A stretch of 24,080 bases of DNA from a virus. Positions 980 through 24,080 of this stretch are shown here, piece by piece (positions within the stretch are counted from its first letter, which is position 1; every line of letters starts with the position of its first letter). A program made the translations under genes and the position numbers. The notes under the pieces are model-generated. The model worked only from the letters and a program-made list of their open reading frames with translations. It ran no database searches and was not told where the DNA came from. Location: UHGV virus genome UHGV-1465484; one strand, given 5' to 3'.

Positions 980-4660
<3,681 letters not shown>

Positions 4661-15726: not shown

Positions 15727-18700
15727 ATGGGTAAAGGCAGCAGTAAGGGGCATACCCCGCGCGAAGCGAAGGACAACCTGAAATCCACGCAGCTGTTGAG
15801 TGCGATTGATGCCATCAGCGAAGGGCCGATTGAAGGTCCGGTGGATGGATTAAAAAGCGTGCTGCTGAACAGTACGCCGGTGCTGGACAGTGAGGGGAAT
15901 ACCAATATCTCCGGCGTCACGGTGGTGTTCCGGGCAGGTGAGCAGGAGCAGTCACCGCCGGAGGGATTTGAATCCTCCGGTTCCGAGACGGTGCTGGGTA
16001 CGGAAGTGAAATATGAAACGCCGATCACCCGGACCATCACGTCGGCAAACATCGACCGTCTGCGCTTTACCTTCGGTGTACAGGCACTGGTGGAAACCAC
16101 CTCAAAGGGAGACAGGAATCCGTCGGAAGTCCGCCTGCTGGTTCAGATACAGCGTAACGGTGGCTGGGTGACGGAAAAAGACATCACCATTAAGGGCAAA
16201 ACCACCTCGCAGTATCTGGCCTCGGTGGTGGTGGATAACCTGCCGCCGCGCCCGTTCAATATCCGGATGCGCAGGATGACGCCGGACAGCACCACAGACC
16301 AGCTGCAGAACAAAACGCTCTGGTCGTCATACACCGAAATCATCGATGTGAAACAGTGCTACCCGAACACGGCACTGGTCGGCGTACAGGTGGACTCGGA
16401 GCAGTTCGGCAGCCAGCAGGTGAGCCGTAATTATCATCTTCGCGGGCGCATTCTGCAGGTGCCGTCGAACTATAACCCGCAGACGCGACAATACAGCGGT
16501 ATCTGGGACGGAACGTTAAAACCAGCATACAGCAACAACATGGCCTGGTGTCTGTGGGATATGCTGACCCACCCGCGCTACGGCATGGGGAAACGTCTTG
16601 GTGCGGCGGATGTGGACAAATGGGCGCTGTATGTCATCGGCCAGTACTGCGACCAGTCAGTGCCGGACGGCTTTGGCGGCACGGAGCCGCGCATCACCTG
16701 TAATGCGTACCTGACCACACAGCGCAAGGCGTGGGATGTGCTCAGTGATTTCTGCTCGGCGATGCGCTGTATGCCGGTATGGAACGGGCAGACGCTGACG
16801 TTCGTGCAGGACCGACAGTCGGATAAGGTGTGGACCTATAACCGCAGTAATGTGGTGATGCCGGATGATGGCGCGCCGTTCCGCTACAGCTTCAGCGCCC
16901 TGAAGGACCGCCATAATGCCGTTGAGGTGAACTGGATTGACCCGAACAACGGCTGGGAGACGGCGACAGAGCTTGTTGAAGATACGCAGGCCATTGCCCG
17001 TTACGGTCGTAATGTCACGAAGATGGATGCCTTTGGTTGTACCAGCCGGGGGCAGGCACACCGCGCCGGGCTGTGGCTGATTAAAACGGAACTGCTGGAA
17101 ACGCAGACCGTGGATTTCAGCGTGGGCGCAGAAGGGCTTCGCCATGTGCCGGGCGATGTTATTGAAATCTGCGATGATGACTATGCCGGTATCAGCACCG
17201 GTGGTCGCGTGCTGGCGGTGAACAGCCAGACCCGGACGCTGACGCTCGACCGTGAAATCACGCTGCCATCCTCCGGTACCACGCTGATAAGCCTGGTTGA
17301 CGGAAGTGGCAATCCGGTCAGCGTGGAGGTTCAGTCCGTCACCGACGGCGTGAAGGTAAAAGTGAGCCGTGTTCCTGACGGTGTTGCTGAATACAGCGTA
17401 TGGGGGCTGAAGCTGCCGACGCTGCGCCAGCGACTGTTCCGCTGCGTGAGTATCCGTGAGAACGACGACGGCACGTATGCCATCACCGCCGTGCAGCATG
17501 TGCCGGAAAAAGAGGCCATCGTGGATAACGGGGCGCACTTTGACGGCGAACAGAGTGGCACGGTGAATGGTGTCACGCCGCCAGCGGTGCAGCACCTGAC
17601 CGCAGAAGTCACTGCAGACAGCGGGGAATATCAGGTGCTGGCGCGATGGGACACACCGAAGGTGGTGAAGGGCGTGAGCTTCCTGCTTCGCCTGACCGTG
17701 GCAGCGGATGACGGCAGTGAGCGGCTGGTCAGCACGGCCCGGACGACGGAAACCACATACCGCTTCACGCAACTGGCGCCAGGGAACTACAGGCTGACAG
17801 TCCGGGCGGCAAATGCCTGGGGGCAGCAGGGCGATCCGGCATCGGTATCGTTCCGTATTGCCGCACCGGCAGCGCCGTCGCGGATTGAGCTGACGCCGGG
17901 CTATTTTCAGATAACCGCCACGCCCCATCTTGCCGTTTATGATCCGACGGTACAGTTTGAGTTCTGGTTCTCGGAAAAGCGGATTGCGGATATCAGGCAG
18001 GTTGAAACCACAGCCCGCTATCTTGGCACGGCGCTGTACTGGATAGCTGCCAGTATCAATATCAAACCGGGCCATGATTATTATTTTTACATCCGCAGTG
18101 TGAACACCGTTGGCAAATCGGCATTTGTGGAGGCTGTTGGCCAGCCGAGTGATGATGCATCCGGCTATCTGGATTTTTTCAAAGGCGAGATAGGGAAAAG
18201 CCATCTGGCTCAGGAGCTGTGGACGCAGATTGATAACGGTCAGCTTGCGCCTGACCTGGCTGAAATCAGGACGTCCATTACGGATGTCAGCAATGAAATC
18301 ACGCAGACCGTCAATAAGAAACTGGAAGACCAGAGTGCGGCAATTCAGCAGATACAGAAGGTTCAGGTTGATACAAATAATAACCTGAACAGCATGTGGG
18401 CTGTGAAGCTGCAGCAGATGCAGGACGGACGCCTTTATATCGCGGGTATTGGTGCCGGTATTGAGAACACCCCTGACGGCATGCAGAGTCAGGTGCTGCT
18501 GGCGGCGGACAGGATTGCGATGGTTAATCCTGCGAATGGCAACACAAAGCCGATGTTTGTTGGTCAGGGCGATCAGATATTCATGAACGAAGTGTTCCTG
18601 AAATATCTGACGGCTCCCACCATTACCAGCGGCGGTAATCCTCCGGCATTTTCCCTGACACCGGACGGGCGGCTGACGGCGAAAAATGCCGATATCAGCG

Positions 18701-19206
18701 GTAGCGTGAATGCGAACTCCGGGACGCTCAACAACGTCACGATTAACGAGAACTGTCGGGTTCTGGGAAAACTGTCCGCGAACCAGATTGAAGGCGATCT
18801 CGTTAAAACAGTGGGCAAAGCTTTCCCCCGGGACTCCCGTGCACCGGAGCGGTGGCCATCAGGGACCATTACCGTCAGGGTTTATGACGATCAGCCGTTT
18901 GACCGGCAAATTGTTATTCCAGCGGTGGCTTTCAGCGGTGCCAGACATGAACGGGAGAATAGCGATACTTATTCGTCATGCCGCCTGATAGTGAAGAAAA
19001 ACGGGGCTGAAATTTATAACCGAACGGCTCTGGATAATACTCTGATTTACACGGGTGTTATTGATATGCCTGCAGGCAGTGGCGTAATGACACTGGAGTT
19101 TTCTGTATCAGCATGGTGGGTAAATGGCTGGTATCCCACAGCAAGTATCAGCGATTTGCTGGTTGTTGTGATGAAGAAAGCCACTGCAGGCATCACGATT
19201 AGCTGA
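15727..19206 (+). CDS. J: Central tail fibre / host specificity protein gpJ, with a divergent C-terminal receptor-binding region
   Basis: 1159-aa ORF; the first ~800 residues agree closely with lambda J as recalled ([24 protein letters not shown]...); the remaining ~350 residues are homologous but clearly diverged and 27 residues longer in total. Confidence 0.95.
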
Positions 19207-19273: not shown

Positions 19274-19873
19274 ATGCGTAAATTATGTGCTGTTATTCTG
19301 TCCACAGTAGTCTGGCTGGTCGCCGCTGGTACGCCAGCGAGCGCAGCAGAGCATCAGTCCACACTAAGCGCCGGGTATCTTCAGACCCATACTGATATGC
19401 CCGGCAACGATGACCTGAAGGGCATTAACGTGAAATACCGTTATGAATTTACGGACACGCTGGGGCTGGTGACGTCATTCAGTTATGCCAATGCCAAAGA
19501 TGAGCAAAAAACGCATTACAGCGATACCCGCTGGCATGAAGATTCAGTGCGTAACCGCTGGTTCAGCATGATGGCGGGGCCGTCTGTACGCGTGAATGAA
19601 TGGTTCAGTGCTTATGCGATGGCAGGTGTGGCTTACAGCCGTGTTTCGACTTTTTCCGGGGATTATCTCCGCGTAACTGACAGCAAGGGGAAAACGCACG
19701 ATGTGCTGACCGGAAGTGATGACGGTCGCCACAGCAACACGTCTCTGGCGTGGGGGGCTGGCGTGCAGTTTAACCCGACCGAATCCGTGGCCATTGATAT
19801 TGCTTATGAAGGCTCCGGCAGTGGTGACTGGCGCACTGACGGTTTCATCGTGGGTGTCGGTTATAAATTCTGA
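19274..19873 (+). CDS. lom: Lom-family outer membrane beta-barrel protein (Ail/Lom/PagC family)
   Basis: 199-aa ORF with N-terminal signal peptide (MRKLCAVILSTVVWLVAAGTPASA) and a C-terminus ...IAYEGSGSGDWRTDGFIVGVGYKF that matches lambda Lom from memory; RBS GAGAGG upstream; flanked by terminators on both sides. Confidence 0.9.
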   Translation: MRKLCAVILSTVVWLVAAGTPASAAEHQSTLSAGYLQTHTDMPGNDDLKGINVKYRYEFTDTLGLVTSFSYANAKDEQKTHYSDTRWHEDSVRNRWFSMMAGPSVRVNEWFSAYAMAGVAYSRVSTFSGDYLRVTDSKGKTHDVLTGSDDGRHSNTSLAWGAGVQFNPTESVAIDIAYEGSGSGDWRTDGFIVGVGYKF

Positions 19874-19931: not shown

Positions 19932-22322
19932 GTGGATAGGGCAGCAGTAAAAATCTCAGGTGTGCGGAAAGATGGTGCGGGAGAACCAATACAGAACTGC
20001 ACTATTCAACTGAAGGCAAAGCGTAACAGCACCACGGTACTGGTGAACACGGTGGCCTCTGAAAATCCTGATGAAGCCGGGCGTTACAGCATGGATGTTG
20101 AGTATGGCCAGTACAGCGTCACCCTGCTGGTTGAAGGTTTTCCGCCTTCACATGCCGGGACCATTACCGTCTATGAAGGCTCCAGACCAGGTACGCTGAA
20201 TGATTTTCTCGGTGCCATGACGGAAGATGATGTCATGCCGGAGGCATTGCGTCGTTTTGAACTGATGGTGGAAGAAGTGGCACGCAACGCCGAAGCCGCC
20301 TCTCAGAGCGCAGCGGCGGCAAAGAAATCCGAAACTGCAGCGGCATCATCAAAGAACGCGGCGAAAACCTCAGAAACGAATGCAGCTAATAGTGCACAGG
20401 CGGCAGCGACCTCAAAGACTGCATCGGCAAACTCCGCGACAGCAGCCAAAAAATCAGAAACCAACGCGAAAAATAGCGAGACAGCCGCAAAGACGAGCGA
20501 AACCAACGCAAAGTCCAGCCAGACGGCAGCGAAAACCAGCGAAACGAATGCCAAAGCCAGTGAAACTGCGGCAAAAAACAGCCAGGTTGCAGCAGCCCAA
20601 AGCGAGAGCGCGGCAGCCGGTTCTGCGACTTCAGCAGCTGGATCAGCAACTGCTGCGGCTAACAGCCAGAAAGCTGCGAAGACGAGTGAAACTAACGCAA
20701 AGTCCAGCCAGACGGCAGCGAAGACCAGCGAAACGAATGCCAAAACCAGCGAAACTGCGGCGAAAAACAGTCAGGATGCAGCAGCCCAAAGCGAGAGTGC
20801 TGCAGCTGGTTCTGCAAGCGCGGCGGCTGCTTCTGCCATTGCATCAGCCAACAGTCAAAAAGCTGCAAAAACCAGTGAAACCAACGCAAAGGCGAGCGAG
20901 ACTGCGGCTGCTAACTCGGCGAAAGCATCAGCTGCAAGCCAGACGGCTGCAAAAGCAAGTGAAGACGCAGCCAGGGAGTACGCAAGCCAGGCAGCAGAGC
21001 CGTATAAATATGTCTTACAGCCGCTTCCTGATGTGTGGATACCGTTTAACGATTCACTGGATATGATTACGGGCTTTTCGCCATCATATAAAAAGATTGT
21101 TATTGGTGATGATGAAATAACAATGCCTGGCGACAAGATTGTAAAGTTTAAACGCGCATCAAAAGCAACTTACATTAATAAATCTGGTGTGCTGACAGAG
21201 GCTGCAATCGATGAACCTCGCTTTGAAAAGTATGGATTGCTGATTGAAGGGCAGCGTACAAACCTGTTAATAAACAGCACAAATCCATCAAAATGGAACA
21301 AGTCATCAAATATGATTTTAAATACATCAGGTGTAGATGATTTTGGTTTCCAGTACGCAAAATTCACATTAAAACCAGAAATGGTGGGGCAAACCTCAGC
21401 CATTTCTATTGTCACAGTATCTGGAAGCAAAGGATATGATGTTACCGGCGATGAAAAGTATGTAACTATCTCATGCAGGGTACAAAGTGGGACTCCAAAT
21501 TTAAGATGTCGATTACGATTTGAAGAATATGATGGATCTACCTACAAATTCCTGGGTGATGCTTACTTAAATATGACAGATTTATCGATTGATAAAACTG
21601 GCGGCGCTGCAAGTCGTATTACTGCAAGGGCTGTTAAAAATGAAGCAAGCAAATGGATTTTCTTTGAGGCAACAATTAAGGCACTTGATACAGAAAATAT
21701 GATCGGTGCGATGGTGCAATATGCACCACCAAAAGGGGGAAGCACTGGTGCAGATGATTATATTTATGTTGCAACTCCTCAGGTCGAAGGCGGTTCGTGC
21801 GCTTCTTCGTTTATTATTACTGAGGCAACGCCAGTCACAAGAGCCAGTGATATGGTGAATATACCAACAAATAACAATATCGGTACACCACCTTTAACAT
21901 TTCTAGCTGAAGTTCATACAAACTGGAACGAAACGCCAAATGCAGCACCACGAATTTTTGATACCAGTGGTGGGAGCACAACTCCGGGTCAATATATAAG
22001 TGTTGCTATTAGTTCAACATTATTTCCTGGTGTTACGATGCACAATAAAAACGGTAGTACAGTAGCCGCCGTATCGCCAGTATTATTTGAACAAAAATCT
22101 GTTCTTGGATTTGTTTTAAATGAATCTGGTAATGTGCATTTCGTTAGCAATGCCCAGCATGGGACTCCTAAAACCACGGATCATGTCGGTGTTAAATCTG
22201 GTTATTTCTTCAGGATTGGGGGACAGACTAATAGCGGTCTACGTCATCTTTTCGGTCACATTCGTAATTTTCGTATATGGCATAAAGAATTAACCGATGC
22301 ACAAATGGGAGAGGTAATATAA
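19932..22322 (+). CDS. stf: Side tail fibre protein: lambda-Stf-like N-terminus and Ala/Ser/Thr heptad shaft fused to a non-lambda C-terminal tip with a LamG/ConA-like lectin signature
   Basis: 796-aa ORF; first start in frame is GTG at 19932 (exact start uncertain); residues ~5-120 resemble lambda Stf from memory; residues ~120-335 are KTSETNA-type heptad repeats; the remainder is AT-rich and ends in ...HIRNFRIWHKELTDAQMGEVI. Confidence 0.85.
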   Translation: MDRAAVKISGVRKDGAGEPIQNCTIQLKAKRNSTTVLVNTVASENPDEAGRYSMDVEYGQYSVTLLVEGFPPSHAGTITVYEGSRPGTLNDFLGAMTEDDVMPEALRRFELMVEEVARNAEAASQSAAAAKKSETAAASSKNAAKTSETNAANSAQAAATSKTASANSATAAKKSETNAKNSETAAKTSETNAKSSQTAAKTSETNAKASETAAKNSQVAAAQSESAAAGSATSAAGSATAAANSQKAAKTSETNAKSSQTAAKTSETNAKTSETAAKNSQDAAAQSESAAAGSASAAAASAIASANSQKAAKTSETNAKASETAAANSAKASAASQTAAKASEDAAREYASQAAEPYKYVLQPLPDVWIPFNDSLDMITGFSPSYKKIVIGDDEITMPGDKIVKFKRASKATYINKSGVLTEAAIDEPRFEKYGLLIEGQRTNLLINSTNPSKWNKSSNMILNTSGVDDFGFQYAKFTLKPEMVGQTSAISIVTVSGSKGYDVTGDEKYVTISCRVQSGTPNLRCRLRFEEYDGSTYKFLGDAYLNMTDLSIDKTGGAASRITARAVKNEASKWIFFEATIKALDTENMIGAMVQYAPPKGGSTGADDYIYVATPQVEGGSCASSFIITEATPVTRASDMVNIPTNNNIGTPPLTFLAEVHTNWNETPNAAPRIFDTSGGSTTPGQYISVAISSTLFPGVTMHNKNGSTVAAVSPVLFEQKSVLGFVLNESGNVHFVSNAQHGTPKTTDHVGVKSGYFFRIGGQTNSGLRHLFGHIRNFRIWHKELTDAQMGEVI
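20290..20980 (+). repeat. Internal coding repeat region of stf: 21-nt (7-aa) heptad units, including two ~140-bp direct copies (20487-20626 and 20676-20815) spaced 189 bp apart
   Basis: The two copies were aligned by eye and are about 90% identical; at protein level AAKTSETNAKSSQTAAKTSETNAK(A/T)SETAAKNSQ(V/D)AAAQSESAAAGSA occurs twice. Confidence 0.8.
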
Positions 22323-22603
22323 TGCGAGACTTAATTATCAAATTCACAGACAAGGCCGACTTTTCGGCCTTTATGGATAGCATTGGTTATGACGATGACG
22401 AGGTGATGCAGAACAATGTTCTCATTGATGTGATAGGTAACGTGTACAAAGAAACCGGGGAAATTACTGAAGATGGCGAGCCGGTATGTGTTAAGGAAGA
22501 CGGATATTTTGTAAACGTGCGCATCATTAATGATGTGAAAACACCGTCAATATTCGATGAATACGCGGTTGTTGTTGAGCATCAACTTCGTGGCTGGATG
22601 TGA
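22322..22603 (+). CDS. Hypothetical acidic 93-aa protein, translationally coupled to stf
   Basis: ATG at 22322 overlaps the stf stop (TAATG); open frame of 93 codons in the same operon orientation; no family recognised. Confidence 0.6.
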   Translation: MRDLIIKFTDKADFSAFMDSIGYDDDEVMQNNVLIDVIGNVYKETGEITEDGEPVCVKEDGYFVNVRIINDVKTPSIFDEYAVVVEHQLRGWM

Positions 22604-22612
22604 GGGAGACAA

Positions 22613-23317
22613 ATGGCTACATCGACAGTAATTCCTGGAGATATCACCACGCTAAAGGGAGATGTCAGTAAAACTAAGGAAGATATTTCCTCAATTAACG
22701 GAAAAGTATCAACGCTTCAGATTGATATGACCAGTGCAAAGCAGGATATCAGCACCAGATACACAAAAACTGAAGTTGATAATAAGCTGAAAAACAAAGT
22801 GGAAGCGAACGATCTGGAAAGCGGTCGTTATGGCGGTGATTTTTACCCGCTGACTGGCCGCGAAGCGTTTTATTTATGGGGGTTGGGCACGACTACTGCT
22901 GCGGCAAACCTTTATCTTAATCCTGACCCTGCAATTTCGTCTGTACTGCGGTCCACATCGTCTATCCGCTATAAACATTCAGTAGAGACGATAGATTCAG
23001 AGCACGCCGATGTCATTTTCAGGATGCGCCCTGTGTGGTACAGGTCGCAATGCGAAAATGACAGGCGTGACTGGGGGTTCTACGGATTGATTGCCGAGGA
23101 AGTAGGAGAAATTGCCCCTCAGTTTGTACACTGGCGACCAGCTAACGAAGATGATGCTCCTGAAGCTATTTCCAGCAATGGCCTTGTTGCCGAAGGTGTA
23201 ATGTACGAACGTCTGGTTGTTCCACTGATTCACCATATCCAGAAGCTGACTGAAAGAGTTGATGAACTTGAGTCAGAATTAAAGTTGTTATTAACTTCCC
23301 GAAGCGATATCGGATAA
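22613..23317 (+). CDS. Short fibre-like protein: N-terminal 11-residue-periodicity repeats plus C-terminal peptidase-S74-type intramolecular chaperone domain
   Basis: ATG at 22613 preceded by GAGGGAG; 234 aa; S116-S-I-R-Y-K121 matches the S-x-x-R-x-K Ser/Lys dyad spacing of S74 chaperone domains; GFYGLIAEEVGEIAPQFV ... LVVPLIHHIQKLTERVDELESELKLL is the typical S74 C-terminal pattern. Confidence 0.75.
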   Translation: MATSTVIPGDITTLKGDVSKTKEDISSINGKVSTLQIDMTSAKQDISTRYTKTEVDNKLKNKVEANDLESGRYGGDFYPLTGREAFYLWGLGTTTAAANLYLNPDPAISSVLRSTSSIRYKHSVETIDSEHADVIFRMRPVWYRSQCENDRRDWGFYGLIAEEVGEIAPQFVHWRPANEDDAPEAISSNGLVAEGVMYERLVVPLIHHIQKLTERVDELESELKLLLTSRSDIG

Positions 23318-23327
23318 AGGAGGAATA

Positions 23328-23615
23328 ATGGATATAACACCTTTCCTTCATGCACTTTGTGCTGTGGCTGCGCAGGTACTGGTTGGTCTTTTTACCGGAA
23401 ACTGGGCTTACGGGGCGATAGCCGGTTGTACGTTCTTCATTGCGCGTGAACACACCCAGGCAGAATATCGCTGGATCGAAATGTTCGGGCATGGCAAGCG
23501 AATGAATATGCCGTGGTGGGGCGGTTTTGATCCGCGTGTTTGGGATGTGGCAAGCCTGATAGATTTTGCTGTGCCGGTGGTGGCGTGTCTGCTGGTCTGG
23601 CTGTTGATCCGTTAA
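23328..23615 (+). CDS. Small hydrophobic protein (95 aa), probable membrane protein or lipoprotein; candidate moron
   Basis: Strong SD (AAAGGAGG) 4-5 nt before ATG at 23328; hydrophobic N-terminal segment (residues ~5-33) ending in a lipobox-like I-A-G-C, and a hydrophobic C-terminal segment (ASLIDFAVPVVACLLVWLLI). Confidence 0.7.
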   Translation: MDITPFLHALCAVAAQVLVGLFTGNWAYGAIAGCTFFIAREHTQAEYRWIEMFGHGKRMNMPWWGGFDPRVWDVASLIDFAVPVVACLLVWLLIR

Positions 23616-23616
23616 A

Positions 23617-23660
23617 CAAAAAAAGCCGCAGCAACTTGTCATGGCAGGATACTGCGGCTG
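23617..23660 (-). terminator. Hairpin with the U-run on the minus strand (possible terminator for leftward transcription, or bidirectional)
   Basis: AGCCGCAG ... CTGCGGCT stem at 23624-23631 and 23653-23660 with a ~21-nt loop; the A-run at 23614-23623 on the + strand is a T-run after the hairpin on the minus strand; no T-run follows on the + strand. The long loop makes this weak. Confidence 0.35.
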
Positions 23661-24080
23661 GCTGGTGAACCTCCGATAGTGCGAGTATTGAATGATTTTC
23701 AGCCATTACTGATTTTACGCATTTTTTGCATGAGAGGATTTGCACCTGCTCTCACAGACCATCTATGACTGTACGCCACTATCTCTAGGGCTGCTATGTG
23801 CTGTGAGTTCAACCAATGTACGAACAGCCAGAAGCGGACAAATGATGACAAACTATATGCTCATCAACGTAGAGTAAGCCACTCAGTTGATGATGGGAGT
23901 GGGTTGCCTGCTGCCATCACTATTGTCGATTCTTAAGTGTACGCACTCTAATTTACAGTTGCTTCATAGCGTAAAATATGATTTAAGATCAAAGACGTTT
24001 ACATCTCGTACCTCACAAGCAGCTTTTACTTGCTGAGGGCGGTAGCGTTTCTATTATTATCTCAAATCAATATGGATAAT

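What the first reader, a model, noticed from the sequence alone, without database searches (positions are those of the whole stretch)
23328..23615. Small membrane or lipoprotein gene with a strong RBS at the end of the late operon
The 95-aa product has a hydrophobic N-terminal stretch ending in a lipobox-like IAGC, a polar Trp/Arg-rich loop (EYRWIEMFGHGKRMNMPWWGGFDPRVWD) and a C-terminal hydrophobic helix. The SD (AAGGAGG) is near consensus, unlike most neighbouring genes. Small envelope proteins at this position in lambdoid prophages are typically lysogenic-conversion or superinfection-exclusion factors (Cor-like or Imm/Sp-like logic) that act on the cell envelope. The function is unknown, and the N-terminal region lacks a basic n-region so the lipoprotein reading is uncertain.
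Basis: inference. Interest (0 to 1): 0.5.

Follow-up and report, generated by a model that had tools for sequence, protein, structure and literature searches.

The report
Conserved small membrane protein after tail-fibre genes
This is a real gene for a 95-residue, three-helix inner-membrane protein (not a lipoprotein) from a large family with no named or characterised member that many unrelated phages carry directly after their receptor-binding tail-fibre or tailspike gene; its job is unknown, and a phage-exclusion or envelope-conversion role is the best guess.

Summary
The ORF (23328-23615, +) and its AAGGAGG ribosome-binding site are real. That site is the strongest of 23 late-gene starts in the window. 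The protein matches PHROG 1443 full-length (E 7e-58), is under purifying selection (dN/dS about 0.15), and occurs in about 35% of complete E. coli genomes.

The lipoprotein reading fails. C34 is kept in only 37% of 156 non-redundant relatives, a lipobox in 12%, while H8 inside the supposed signal peptide is 98% conserved. AlphaFold (pLDDT 93.6) gives three helices. An invariant set (H8, R40, E41, Q44, A45, E46, R48, R58, W72, D79, P83) marks a polar site and an Arg/Trp-rich juxtamembrane segment, and charge bias puts that segment in the cytoplasm.

The family spans Proteobacteria and has no Pfam, NCBIfam, PADLOC or PDB relative and no name. In phages it sits directly after the receptor-binding protein gene in lambdoid, P22-like, HP1-like, SSU5-like and DGR-bearing phages. 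T1-like virulent phages keep only a decayed copy. Aeromonas and Leclercia have non-phage chromosomal copies.

Best guess, at low confidence: an accessory inner-membrane factor acting like Imm or SieA. Function is untested.

The parts
23317..23323 (+). Shine-Dalgarno AAGGAGG; its first A is the last base of the upstream stop codon, and it lies 4 nt before the ATG
   Evidence: Sequence. Strongest predicted anti-SD pairing (-11.6 kcal/mol) of 23 late-gene starts in the window. Similarity to other phages begins at about 23316, so the SD travels with the ORF as one module.
23328..23615 (+). CDS, 95 aa, member of PHROG 1443, an uncharacterised small membrane protein family
   Evidence: dN/dS about 0.15. 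AlphaFold2 mean pLDDT 93.6.
23337..23396 (+). Helix 1 (residues 4-23), transmembrane, carrying H8 (98% conserved) and Q16 (78%)
23403..23486 (+). Helix 2 (residues 26-53): a membrane part (26-39) continuing into the invariant motif R40-E41-x-x-Q44-A45-E46-Y47-R48-W49-I50
23487..23546 (+). Arg/Trp-rich connecting segment (residues 54-73) with R58, M61-P62-W63-W64-G65-G66-F67-D68 and the invariant W72
   Evidence: K+R bias places residues 40-73 on the cytoplasmic side in 151 of 156 relatives.
23547..23609 (+). Helix 3 (residues 74-94), transmembrane, with D79 (88%) and P83 (99%)
23624..23659 (.). Hairpin 9 nt after the stop codon, preceded by an A-run. Read on the minus strand it is a stem followed by U7, so it looks like an intrinsic terminator for leftward transcripts and is at best weak for the + strand
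   Evidence: Folds (-21.4 and -20.6 kcal/mol; z about -1.3, so not exceptional by energy alone). Missed by the consensus scan because its loop is long.

Best explanation
SHOWN. The gene encodes a 95-residue integral inner-membrane protein of three helices. Helices 1 and 2 form a tight hairpin, helix 2 extends into a conserved Arg/Glu/Trp-rich juxtamembrane segment, and helix 3 follows. It is not a lipoprotein. It belongs to a large family found across Proteobacteria, in which no member carries a functional name in the databases searched. In phages the gene sits immediately after the receptor-binding protein gene. Sometimes it is translationally coupled to that gene, as in this window. In P22-like phages it is a self-contained cassette of terminator, promoter-like site and gene. 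INFERRED. It is an accessory (moron-type) gene rather than a virion or lysis gene. I think it acts from the inner membrane through its near-invariant polar residues, which may cluster (H8, R40/E41, D79), and the conserved juxtamembrane segment, binding a host membrane component that is conserved across Proteobacteria. The most likely consequence is exclusion of incoming phages at or after genome delivery across the inner membrane, in the manner of T4 Imm or P22 SieA. This would benefit the lysogen or the infected cell whichever receptor the neighbouring fibre uses.
For: Gene and protein reality. Membrane fold: hydropathy and AlphaFold2 with pLDDT 93.6, helices 4-23, 26-53 and 74-94. Functional site: H8 98%, R40 99%, E41 100%, Q44/A45/E46 97%, R48 90%, R58 90%, W72 100%, P83 99% and D79 88% in 156 sequences below 80% identity. 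Position after the receptor-binding gene: E. coli lambdoids, where 83 of 89 loci follow a fibre-cassette gene at a 9-45 nt gap; phage 21; P22-like Gally and 611R6 after the tailspike; Aeromonas HP1-like prophages overlapping the tail-fibre stop; a Comamonas prophage, one 72-aa ORF after J; an SSU5-like phage-plasmid; an Ideonella prophage between a 364-aa protein and avd/RT. In 74 divergent IMG/VR contigs, 48 of 72 upstream ORFs are at least 400 aa, and all 15 Pfam families hit are tail-protein families or beta-helix/esterase domains of the kind found in depolymerase tailspikes; the commonest are Pect-lyase 15, S74 15, Tail_spike_N 6 and Head_binding 4. Accessory character: downstream neighbours vary; Gally has terminator, AT-rich spacer with a promoter-like site, SD and gene; GC is 0.53 against 0.45 upstream and 0.43 downstream; T1-like virulent phages keep only a decayed copy; intact copies persist beside decayed tail genes in E. 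coli B and CFT073. [quoted passage not shown]
Against: No experiment and no homology links this family to exclusion: no PADLOC, Pfam, NCBIfam or PDB hit, and fold searches returned only generic helical bundles. Known exclusion proteins are usually specific and diverge fast, whereas this family is strongly conserved across bacterial classes and independent of the neighbouring RBP type. Syntenic non-phage chromosomal copies in Aeromonas and Leclercia, and scattered ones in sphingomonads, fit a cellular function at least as well. In this window no promoter-like site precedes the gene, so expression in the lysogen is not shown. Topology is unresolved: charge bias favours N-in with a cytoplasmic loop, while the phage 21 record cites TMHMM with two TMDs, N-in and C-in, plus a SignalP signal.
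Confidence: 0.3

Rival explanations
1. Receptor-pathway conversion. The protein inhibits or modulates a conserved step of undecaprenyl-phosphate-dependent surface polysaccharide assembly (O-antigen, capsule, ECA or EPS). This would change the receptor for polysaccharide-dependent phages, as gtrABC, oac, neuO or the small polymerase inhibitors of epsilon15 and D3 do. Those genes also sit next to tailspike genes (my own knowledge of those systems).
For: In P22-like phages the gene occupies the slot between tailspike and int, and in 611R6 it lies about 470 nt downstream of an OafA-type O-acetylase gene. In divergent viral contigs the upstream RBPs are mostly depolymerase-type, with pectate-lyase-like, endosialidase S74, GDSL esterase and K1 lyase domains. 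A lipid-carrier-level target would explain why the protein is conserved whatever the RBP. The Aeromonas chromosomal copy lies beside a kdkA-like kinase gene and two lipid A acyltransferase genes.
Against: No similarity to GtrA or to any glycosyl- or acyl-transferase. At 95 aa it is too small for a typical transferase. The Aeromonas neighbours are convergent, not co-transcribed. There are no conserved neighbours elsewhere. E. coli B, which lacks O-antigen (my own knowledge), carries three matching places, and the one examined is intact. The favoured topology exposes almost nothing to the periplasm.
Confidence: 0.2
2. A cellular small membrane protein with a housekeeping or stress-related role, for example a subunit or regulator of a conserved inner-membrane complex. 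Phages would merely carry it as a host-fitness cargo gene with no role in phage-phage interactions.
For: Syntenic non-phage copies in five Aeromonas and five Leclercia species genomes. Copies beside ligA, PPIase and other housekeeping genes in sphingomonads. Very strong conservation of polar residues across classes. Found in about 35% of E. coli genomes, often in several copies.
Against: It has no conserved operon partner anywhere. It is absent from most species genomes, with 67 loci among 185,579 species representatives using two strict motifs, which is a lower bound. The tight, repeated placement after RBP genes in unrelated phages is hard to explain by random cargo capture.
Confidence: 0.2
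3. A late lytic-cycle function: control of lysis timing (holin- or antiholin-like), or a membrane-bound helper for fibre or tailspike maturation or virion release.
For: About 95 aa with three helices resembles class I holins in size. Start and stop overlap the RBP gene in roughly 40% of divergent viral contigs, implying co-expression with it. In this window no promoter-like site precedes it, so it should be read from the late transcript. GxxxG-type glycines occur in helices 1 and 2.
Against: It is not in the lysis cassette in the lambdoid and P22-like phage genomes examined. Charge bias gives the opposite orientation to class I holins. Holins are not conserved like this. It is decayed in virulent T1-like phages, which still lyse and still make the tailspike. 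P22-like phages place it after the late terminator. Chromosomal copies exist without phage genes.
Confidence: 0.1
4. A Cor- or Llp-like lipoprotein: the N-terminus is cleaved at IAG|C, and the lipidated product masks an outer-membrane receptor.
For: IAGC fits the lipobox pattern in this copy. The phage 21 record quotes a SignalP 29-aa signal. The position after tail-fibre genes matches cor (my own knowledge).
Against: C34 is present in 37% and a lipobox in 12% of non-redundant relatives. There is no K or R before residue 40. H8 and Q16 inside the 'signal' are near-invariant. A second strongly hydrophobic C-terminal helix would anchor the product in the inner membrane. AlphaFold packs residues 4-39 as two helices of one bundle.
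Confidence: 0.03

Closest known systems
P22 SieA (superinfection exclusion, inner membrane)
   Same: A small phage-encoded integral inner-membrane protein with three predicted TM helices and no signal sequence. It has a short conserved motif predicted on the cytoplasmic side. It is carried by temperate phages of enterobacteria (PMC10883804).
   Different: SieA is 162-164 aa, and its motif FxRYPxEAxxFNK is absent here. SieA types are under 30% identical to each other, whereas this family is highly conserved. sieA is not placed directly after the tailspike gene. No sequence similarity was detected. Exclusion by the present protein is untested.
T4 Imm
   Same: [quoted passage not shown] Similar size class.
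   Different: No Pfam match to any family, including the Imm family. Imm is an early gene of a virulent phage and is not linked to a fibre gene.
Cor (T1, phi80, N15, HK022) and T5 Llp
   Same: Accessory exclusion genes encoded next to the receptor-binding genes (PMC8594841). The decayed copy in T1-like HC6 lies directly after that phage's tailspike gene, at the end of the tail operon.
   Different: Cor and Llp block one outer-membrane receptor (FhuA) and co-vary with the RBP (my own knowledge). This protein is the same whatever the RBP, is not a lipoprotein, and probably exposes almost nothing to the periplasm.
Tailspike-adjacent seroconversion genes (P22 gtrABC, Sf6 oac, CUS-3 neuO, epsilon15/D3 polymerase inhibitors)
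   Same: Same genomic slot in P22-like phages, between the tailspike gene and int/att. Integral membrane product.
   Different: No homology to GtrA, acyltransferases or Wzy. No effect on polysaccharide has been shown.
Lambda morons lom and bor
   Same: Cargo genes in or after the tail region of lambdoid prophages. lom is present in this window at 19274-19873. In Gally the gene has the terminator, promoter-like site and gene layout of a moron.
   Different: Lom and Bor are outer-membrane proteins with signal sequences. This is an inner-membrane helical protein found well beyond lambdoid phages.

Membership tests
PHROG 1443 (unknown function) | Full-length match to the family profile | tested here: met
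   E 6.7e-58, residues 1-95 on profile positions 1-95 of 97.
Bacterial lipoprotein (SPase II substrate) | Lipobox [LVI][ASTVI][GAS]C conserved at the cleavage site | tested here: not met
   IAGC is present in this copy, but the pattern occurs in only 19 of 156 non-redundant relatives and Cys in 57 of 156.
Bacterial lipoprotein (SPase II substrate) | Basic n-region before the hydrophobic core | tested here: not met
   No K or R in residues 1-39, and D2 is the only charge.
Bacterial lipoprotein (SPase II substrate) | A signal peptide is removed, so it should be free to vary | tested here: not met
   H8 is 98% and Q16 78% conserved inside it. AlphaFold models residues 4-39 as two packed helices at pLDDT above 90.
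Cor family | Sequence similarity to Cor | tested here: inconclusive
   No Pfam, NCBIfam or PHROG hit other than PHROG 1443, 34165 and 9191. No direct pairwise comparison with a Cor sequence was run.
Cor family | Co-occurrence with FhuA-dependent receptor-binding proteins | tested here: not met
   The gene is found after side tail fibres, tailspikes, P2/HP1-type fibres and J proteins of many kinds.
P22 SieA | Conserved motif FxRYPxEAxxFNK and a length of about 160 aa | tested here: not met
   The motif is absent from the 95-aa sequence by inspection against PMC10883804.
P22 SieA | Inner-membrane protein with three TM segments | tested here: met
   By prediction only: hydropathy and AlphaFold helices 4-23, 26-53 and 74-94.
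P22 SieA | Blocks DNA injection of related phages | not testable with these tools
   Needs plating and K+ efflux assays.
Moron (autonomous cargo cassette) | Own promoter and terminator, with composition different from its neighbours | tested here: inconclusive
   Met in P22-like Gally: terminator at 3789-3809, promoter-like site at 3826-3855, then SD and gene. In this window GC differs from both flanks, but the gap to the upstream gene is 10 nt and no promoter-like site was found.
Class I holin | Encoded in the lysis cassette next to an endolysin gene | tested here: not met
   The gene lies after the tail-fibre genes and next to the b region or att.
Class I holin | N-out, C-in topology with a basic C-terminal tail | tested here: not met
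   K+R bias favours N-in and C-out in 151 of 156 relatives. The C tail carries 0.55 K+R on average.
GtrA-like / O-antigen conversion proteins | Match to GtrA or to acyl- or glycosyl-transferase families | tested here: not met
   No Pfam hit at E<1 apart from a sub-threshold PhoR N-terminal match.
Known anti-phage defence systems (PADLOC) | Match to a PADLOC model | tested here: not met
   0 families at E<=0.01.

The most novel reading that the evidence does not exclude
The family is a previously unrecognised, broadly distributed phage accessory factor that travels with receptor-binding genes of any type. Through one conserved intramembrane or juxtamembrane site it would engage a host inner-membrane component shared by Proteobacteria, giving receptor-independent exclusion or receptor-pathway shutdown. 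That would make it a generic counterpart of the receptor-specific Cor/Llp class, with domesticated chromosomal copies acting as stand-alone defence or envelope regulators.
Probability: 0.25. Interest if true: 0.7.

Novelty: new variant of a known kind. Interest (0 to 1): 0.45.

Why it matters
About one in three complete E. coli genomes carries this gene, often in several prophages, and no database or paper searched gives it a name or function. Its near-invariant polar motif and its repeated placement right after receptor-binding genes in unrelated phage lineages point to a specific, selectable activity. If that activity is exclusion or receptor-pathway modulation, it would be a common and so far uncounted determinant of phage host range in E. 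coli and other Proteobacteria. That matters for phage therapy and for predicting prophage-mediated resistance. If the activity is cellular instead, it defines a new small membrane protein family with a clear mutational target list. Either way, a cheap experiment would settle it.

Tried and rejected
- **Lipoprotein or signal-peptide reading:** rejected on family conservation.
- **Sequence and profile searches:** no known relative in Pfam, NCBIfam, PADLOC or PDB. A sub-threshold PhoR N-terminal match (best E 0.0035 in 4 of 46 members) was treated as compositional or architectural resemblance only.
- **The upstream 93-aa protein (PHROG 1361) as an obligatory partner:** rejected, because jackhmmer finds it only in Escherichia loci.
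- **Conserved neighbours outside phages:** none beyond within-genus synteny in Aeromonas and Leclercia.
- **RNA element in 22300-24080:** no Rfam hit at E<=1.
- **Literature:** no paper for PHROG 1443, the protein accessions or DUF5658. Topic searches found no study of this gene.
- **Phage Kapi1, whose tailspike-int region was tested for seroconversion:** it has no copy of this gene, so those results do not bear on it.
- **Profile scan of genome contigs with the divergent alignment A2:** failed for lack of a conserved stretch, so A1 was used instead.
- **DUF5658 fusion in Ideonella:** noted, but DUF5658 is itself uncharacterised, so it gave no functional lead.

Full report
**1. Observation**

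The ORF at 23328-23615 (+) is present as described. It has an ATG start and 95 codons, and the product is MDITPFLHALCAVAAQVLVGLFTGNWAYGAIAGCTFFIAREHTQAEYRWIEMFGHGKRMNMPWWGGFDPRVWDVASLIDFAVPVVACLLVWLLIR.

AAGGAGG occupies 23317-23323, overlapping the last base of the upstream stop codon, 4 nt before the ATG. Its predicted pairing with the 16S 3' end (-11.6 kcal/mol) is the strongest of 23 candidate late-gene starts in the window.

The gene closes a lambda-type tail region:
- J, 15727-19206
- lom, 19274-19873
- side tail fibre, 19932-22322
- a 93-aa ORF, 22322-22603
- a 234-aa fibre protein with a Peptidase_S74 chaperone domain, 22613-23317

The stretch compared (23200-24080) is identical to a prophage inserted at icd in E. 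coli TCM3e1.

**2. It is a real, selected gene**

- The protein matches PHROG 1443 (unknown function) over its full length at E 6.7e-58.
- A word-indexed search found 571 clusters at E<=1e-3, all listed ones unnamed or called 'hypothetical protein' and none with a Pfam domain.
- An exhaustive HMM search of 1.84 billion representatives found 437 clusters at 50% identity. The best 150 are all stand-alone proteins of 58-146 aa.
- Among 56 distinct E. coli alleles, median pairwise dN/dS is 0.14 and pooled pN/pS is 0.18.
- The ORF occurs in 1887 of 5426 complete E. coli genomes, at a median of 2 and up to 7 places per genome. These include CFT073, ATCC 25922, ST131 and E. coli B.
- All names read in the three largest clusters are 'hypothetical protein'.

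**3. What the protein is**

Hydropathy shows a 34-residue apolar N-terminal block (residues 6-39), a polar stretch (40-73) and a strongly apolar C-terminal segment (74-94). AlphaFold2 on a 32-sequence alignment gives mean pLDDT 93.6, with helices at 4-23, 26-53 and 74-94.

In 156 family members filtered to below 80% identity, the conserved positions are:

| Position | Conservation |
|---|---|
| E41, W72 | 100% |
| R40, P83 | 99% |
| H8 | 98% |
| Q44, A45, E46 | 97% |
| R48, R58 | 90% |
| D79 | 88% |
| I50 | 86% |
| Y47 | 85% |
| Q16 | 78% |

Counting residues along the three antiparallel helices, H8, R40/E41 and D79 lie at about the same depth. I therefore infer a buried polar cluster next to the conserved segment.

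**4. The lipoprotein reading fails**

- Cys34 is present in only 57 of 156 relatives, and a lipobox pattern in only 19 of 156.
- There is no basic residue before position 40.
- The putative signal peptide contains near-invariant H8 and Q16.

**5. Topology is unresolved but leans one way**

The 40-73 segment carries 5.4 K+R on average. The 22-27 turn carries 0.1 K+R, and it holds acidic residues in 58 of 156 sequences. K+R on the N-tail plus the loop exceeds K+R on the turn plus the C-tail in 151 of 156 sequences.

By the positive-inside rule this favours the N-terminus in the cytoplasm, a minimal periplasmic turn, the conserved segment in the cytoplasm, and the C-terminus outside. The phage 21 GenBank record instead quotes TMHMM (two TMDs, N-in, C-in) and a SignalP 29-aa signal. 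A weak, sub-threshold match to the PhoR N-terminal hairpin has the same hairpin-plus-basic-linker layout.

**6. No known relatives**

**7. Where the family lives**

Species-representative genomes with a copy are Gamma-, Beta- and Alphaproteobacteria and Desulfovibrio. There are also a Dehalococcoidia MAG (37% identity, unexplained) and one Collinsella MAG contig that is 94% identical to E. coli and probably contamination.

Some copies are clearly non-phage:
- Five Aeromonas species genomes share one chromosomal locus: pirin, then the gene, then a convergent kdkA-like kinase gene and two lipid A acyltransferase genes.
- Five Leclercia species genomes share another locus.
- Sphingomonad copies lie beside ligA, PPIase and other housekeeping genes, with no conserved partner.

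**8. The strongest new finding: position in phages**

In 89 E. coli-type loci the upstream gene is as follows:

| Upstream gene | Loci | Gap to the ORF |
|---|---|---|
| 227-234 aa S74 fibre protein | 47 | 9-25 nt, mostly 10 |
| 309-346 aa fibre-domain protein | 28 | 41-45 nt, mostly 42 |
| 92-aa cassette protein | 8 | 12 nt |
| 167-aa ORF | 1 | 76 nt |
| no ORF found by this method | 5 | not applicable |

The same placement recurs in unrelated phage lineages:
- Phage 21.
- An SSU5-like IncFIB phage-plasmid.
- P22-like Gally and vB_EcoP-611R6, between the tailspike gene (plus an O-acetylase gene in 611R6) and int.
- Aeromonas HP1-like prophages, where the gene overlaps the stop of the tail-fibre gene and is followed by baseplate genes.
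- A Comamonas prophage, after J and a 72-aa ORF.
- An Ideonella prophage, between a 364-aa protein and avd/RT of a diversity-generating retroelement. There the gene is fused to DUF5658.

I then collected 74 divergent IMG/VR contigs using the QAEYRWIA pattern. In these, 48 of 72 upstream ORFs are at least 400 aa, and about 40% abut or overlap the gene.

All 15 Pfam families hit by those upstream ORFs are tail-protein families (mostly fibre or tailspike) or beta-helix/esterase domains of the kind found in depolymerase tailspikes. The commonest are Pect-lyase-like (15), Peptidase_S74 (15), Tail_spike_N (6), Head_binding (4), Beta_helix (4), Phage_tail_fib (3) and End_N_terminal (3); the rest are single hits. 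Downstream neighbours are heterogeneous: PHROG 3893, UmuD-like proteins, repressors, holins and an Avd.

Exceptions exist. In a P1-size plasmid the gene lies in an early-type region. In Aeromonas phage 62AhydR11PP its neighbours are all unannotated. In Aeromonas phage 4_4512 it lies inside the structural module.

**9. Accessory character**

- In Gally the tailspike gene is followed by a strong intrinsic terminator, a roughly 190-nt AT-rich spacer with a promoter-like site, an SD and then the gene. This is the classic moron layout.
- In this window the gap to the upstream gene is 10 nt and no promoter-like site is found on the + strand. The gene should therefore be read from the late transcript unless a weak internal promoter exists.
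- Nucleotide similarity to other phages starts at about 23316 and often ends at 23606, so the SD and ORF move as one module.
- GC is 0.53 in the ORF, against 0.45 upstream and 0.43 downstream.
- T1-like virulent phages (HC6 and relatives) retain only a decayed copy, with an internal deletion and stop codons, directly after an S74 tailspike gene. This suggests the gene is dispensable for lytic growth.
- Intact copies persist beside decayed tail genes in E. coli B (DLP12 region) and CFT073 (next to sitABCD).

**10. Mechanism**

Nothing here demonstrates function. The established pattern is that phages encode receptor-masking or exclusion genes next to their receptor-binding genes (PMC8594841). 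Cor, Llp, gtrABC, oac and neuO are examples I cite from my own knowledge. [quoted passage not shown]

The present protein differs from the receptor-specific class, because it is the same whatever the adjacent RBP and is conserved across bacterial classes. Its target, if it has one, must therefore be a conserved membrane component.

My ranking is:

| Explanation | Confidence |
|---|---|
| Imm/SieA-like block at the inner membrane | 0.30 |
| Interference with lipid-carrier-dependent surface polysaccharide assembly | 0.20 |
| Cellular small-membrane-protein function carried as cargo | 0.20 |
| Late lytic function (lysis timing or fibre maturation) | 0.10 |
| Cor-like lipoprotein | 0.03 |
| Something else | the remainder |

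**11. Novelty and verdict**

The ORF is already catalogued as a hypothetical protein, and phage 21 annotators called it a 'putative membrane protein'. What is new here:
- the family definition, with its invariant motif;
- the rejection of the lipoprotein reading;
- the cross-lineage linkage to receptor-binding genes;
- the chromosomal members.

It most resembles known RBP-adjacent accessory membrane proteins in kind but belongs to none of their families. I therefore rate it a new variant of a known kind, of moderate interest, with a cheap decisive experiment available.

Noticed in passing
window 19932-22322, repeats at 20438-20902: The 796-aa side tail fibre ORF has a Prophage tail fibre N-terminal domain, then Ala/Ser/Thr/Lys-rich imperfect repeats with 21-, 42- and 189-nt periods (AAKTSETNAK-like). 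RefSeq marks the same gene in strain TCM3e1 as a pseudogene missing its C-terminus, while the 781-aa counterpart in E. coli B is annotated as intact.
   Followed up: partly
window 22322-22603: A 93-aa acidic protein (PHROG 1361, unknown function) starts at the stf stop codon. It lies within the fibre cassette upstream of the membrane gene in all nine Escherichia loci that carry it, but jackhmmer finds it in no other genus, so it belongs to the E. coli fibre cassette and not to the membrane-protein family.
   Followed up: yes
window 22613-23317: A separate 234-aa ORF carries the C-terminal part of a long tail fibre, including a Peptidase_S74 intramolecular chaperone (PHROG 3299 positions 1147-1383 of 1385). 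The side fibre here therefore seems split into a shaft gene, the 93-aa gene and a distal tip gene. An alternative 309-346 aa tip replaces it in 28 of 89 related loci.
   Followed up: partly
window 23616-24080: AT-rich (GC 0.43) region after the gene. Similarity to other E. coli prophages continues to about 23719 or 23801 in some records. RefSeq annotates a 75-nt 'capsid protein' fragment at 23649-23723. The hairpin at 23624-23659 reads as a terminator for the minus strand. There is no Rfam match.
   Followed up: partly
L001 12885-15661 (starts 4 nt beyond the window end), strain TCM3e1: Three co-oriented genes (326, 368 and 225 aa) between this gene and the icd' attR match PADLOC models Hp1, Hp2 and Hp3 (E 1e-60, 1e-27, 4e-13). 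They appear to be a candidate three-gene defence system carried as b-region cargo.
   Followed up: partly
L078 3964-4180 (Escherichia phage HC6; same in ST1UNAM, PBM-2, HC8A): An unannotated, decayed copy of the family gene (internal deletion and stop codons) lies directly after an 859-aa tailspike gene with Tail_spike_N and S74 domains in T1-like virulent phages.
   Followed up: yes
L081 5001-5594 (Ideonella dechloratans plasmid): A 197-aa protein fuses this family's domain (residues 1-92) to DUF5658 (residues 108-189). It sits between a 364-aa protein and two avd/reverse-transcriptase pairs of a diversity-generating retroelement in a prophage-like region.
   Followed up: partly
L003 8001-8309 and L010, L014, L015, L020 (Aeromonas chromosomes): A non-phage, syntenic chromosomal copy lies between a pirin gene and a convergent cluster made of a kdkA-like kinase gene and two lipid A acyltransferase genes.
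   Followed up: partly
L073 and L079 (phage 21; E. coli CFT073): In phage 21 and a CFT073 prophage, the sitABCD iron/manganese transporter operon converges on this gene, and sitD ends about 90 nt from its stop codon.
   Followed up: no
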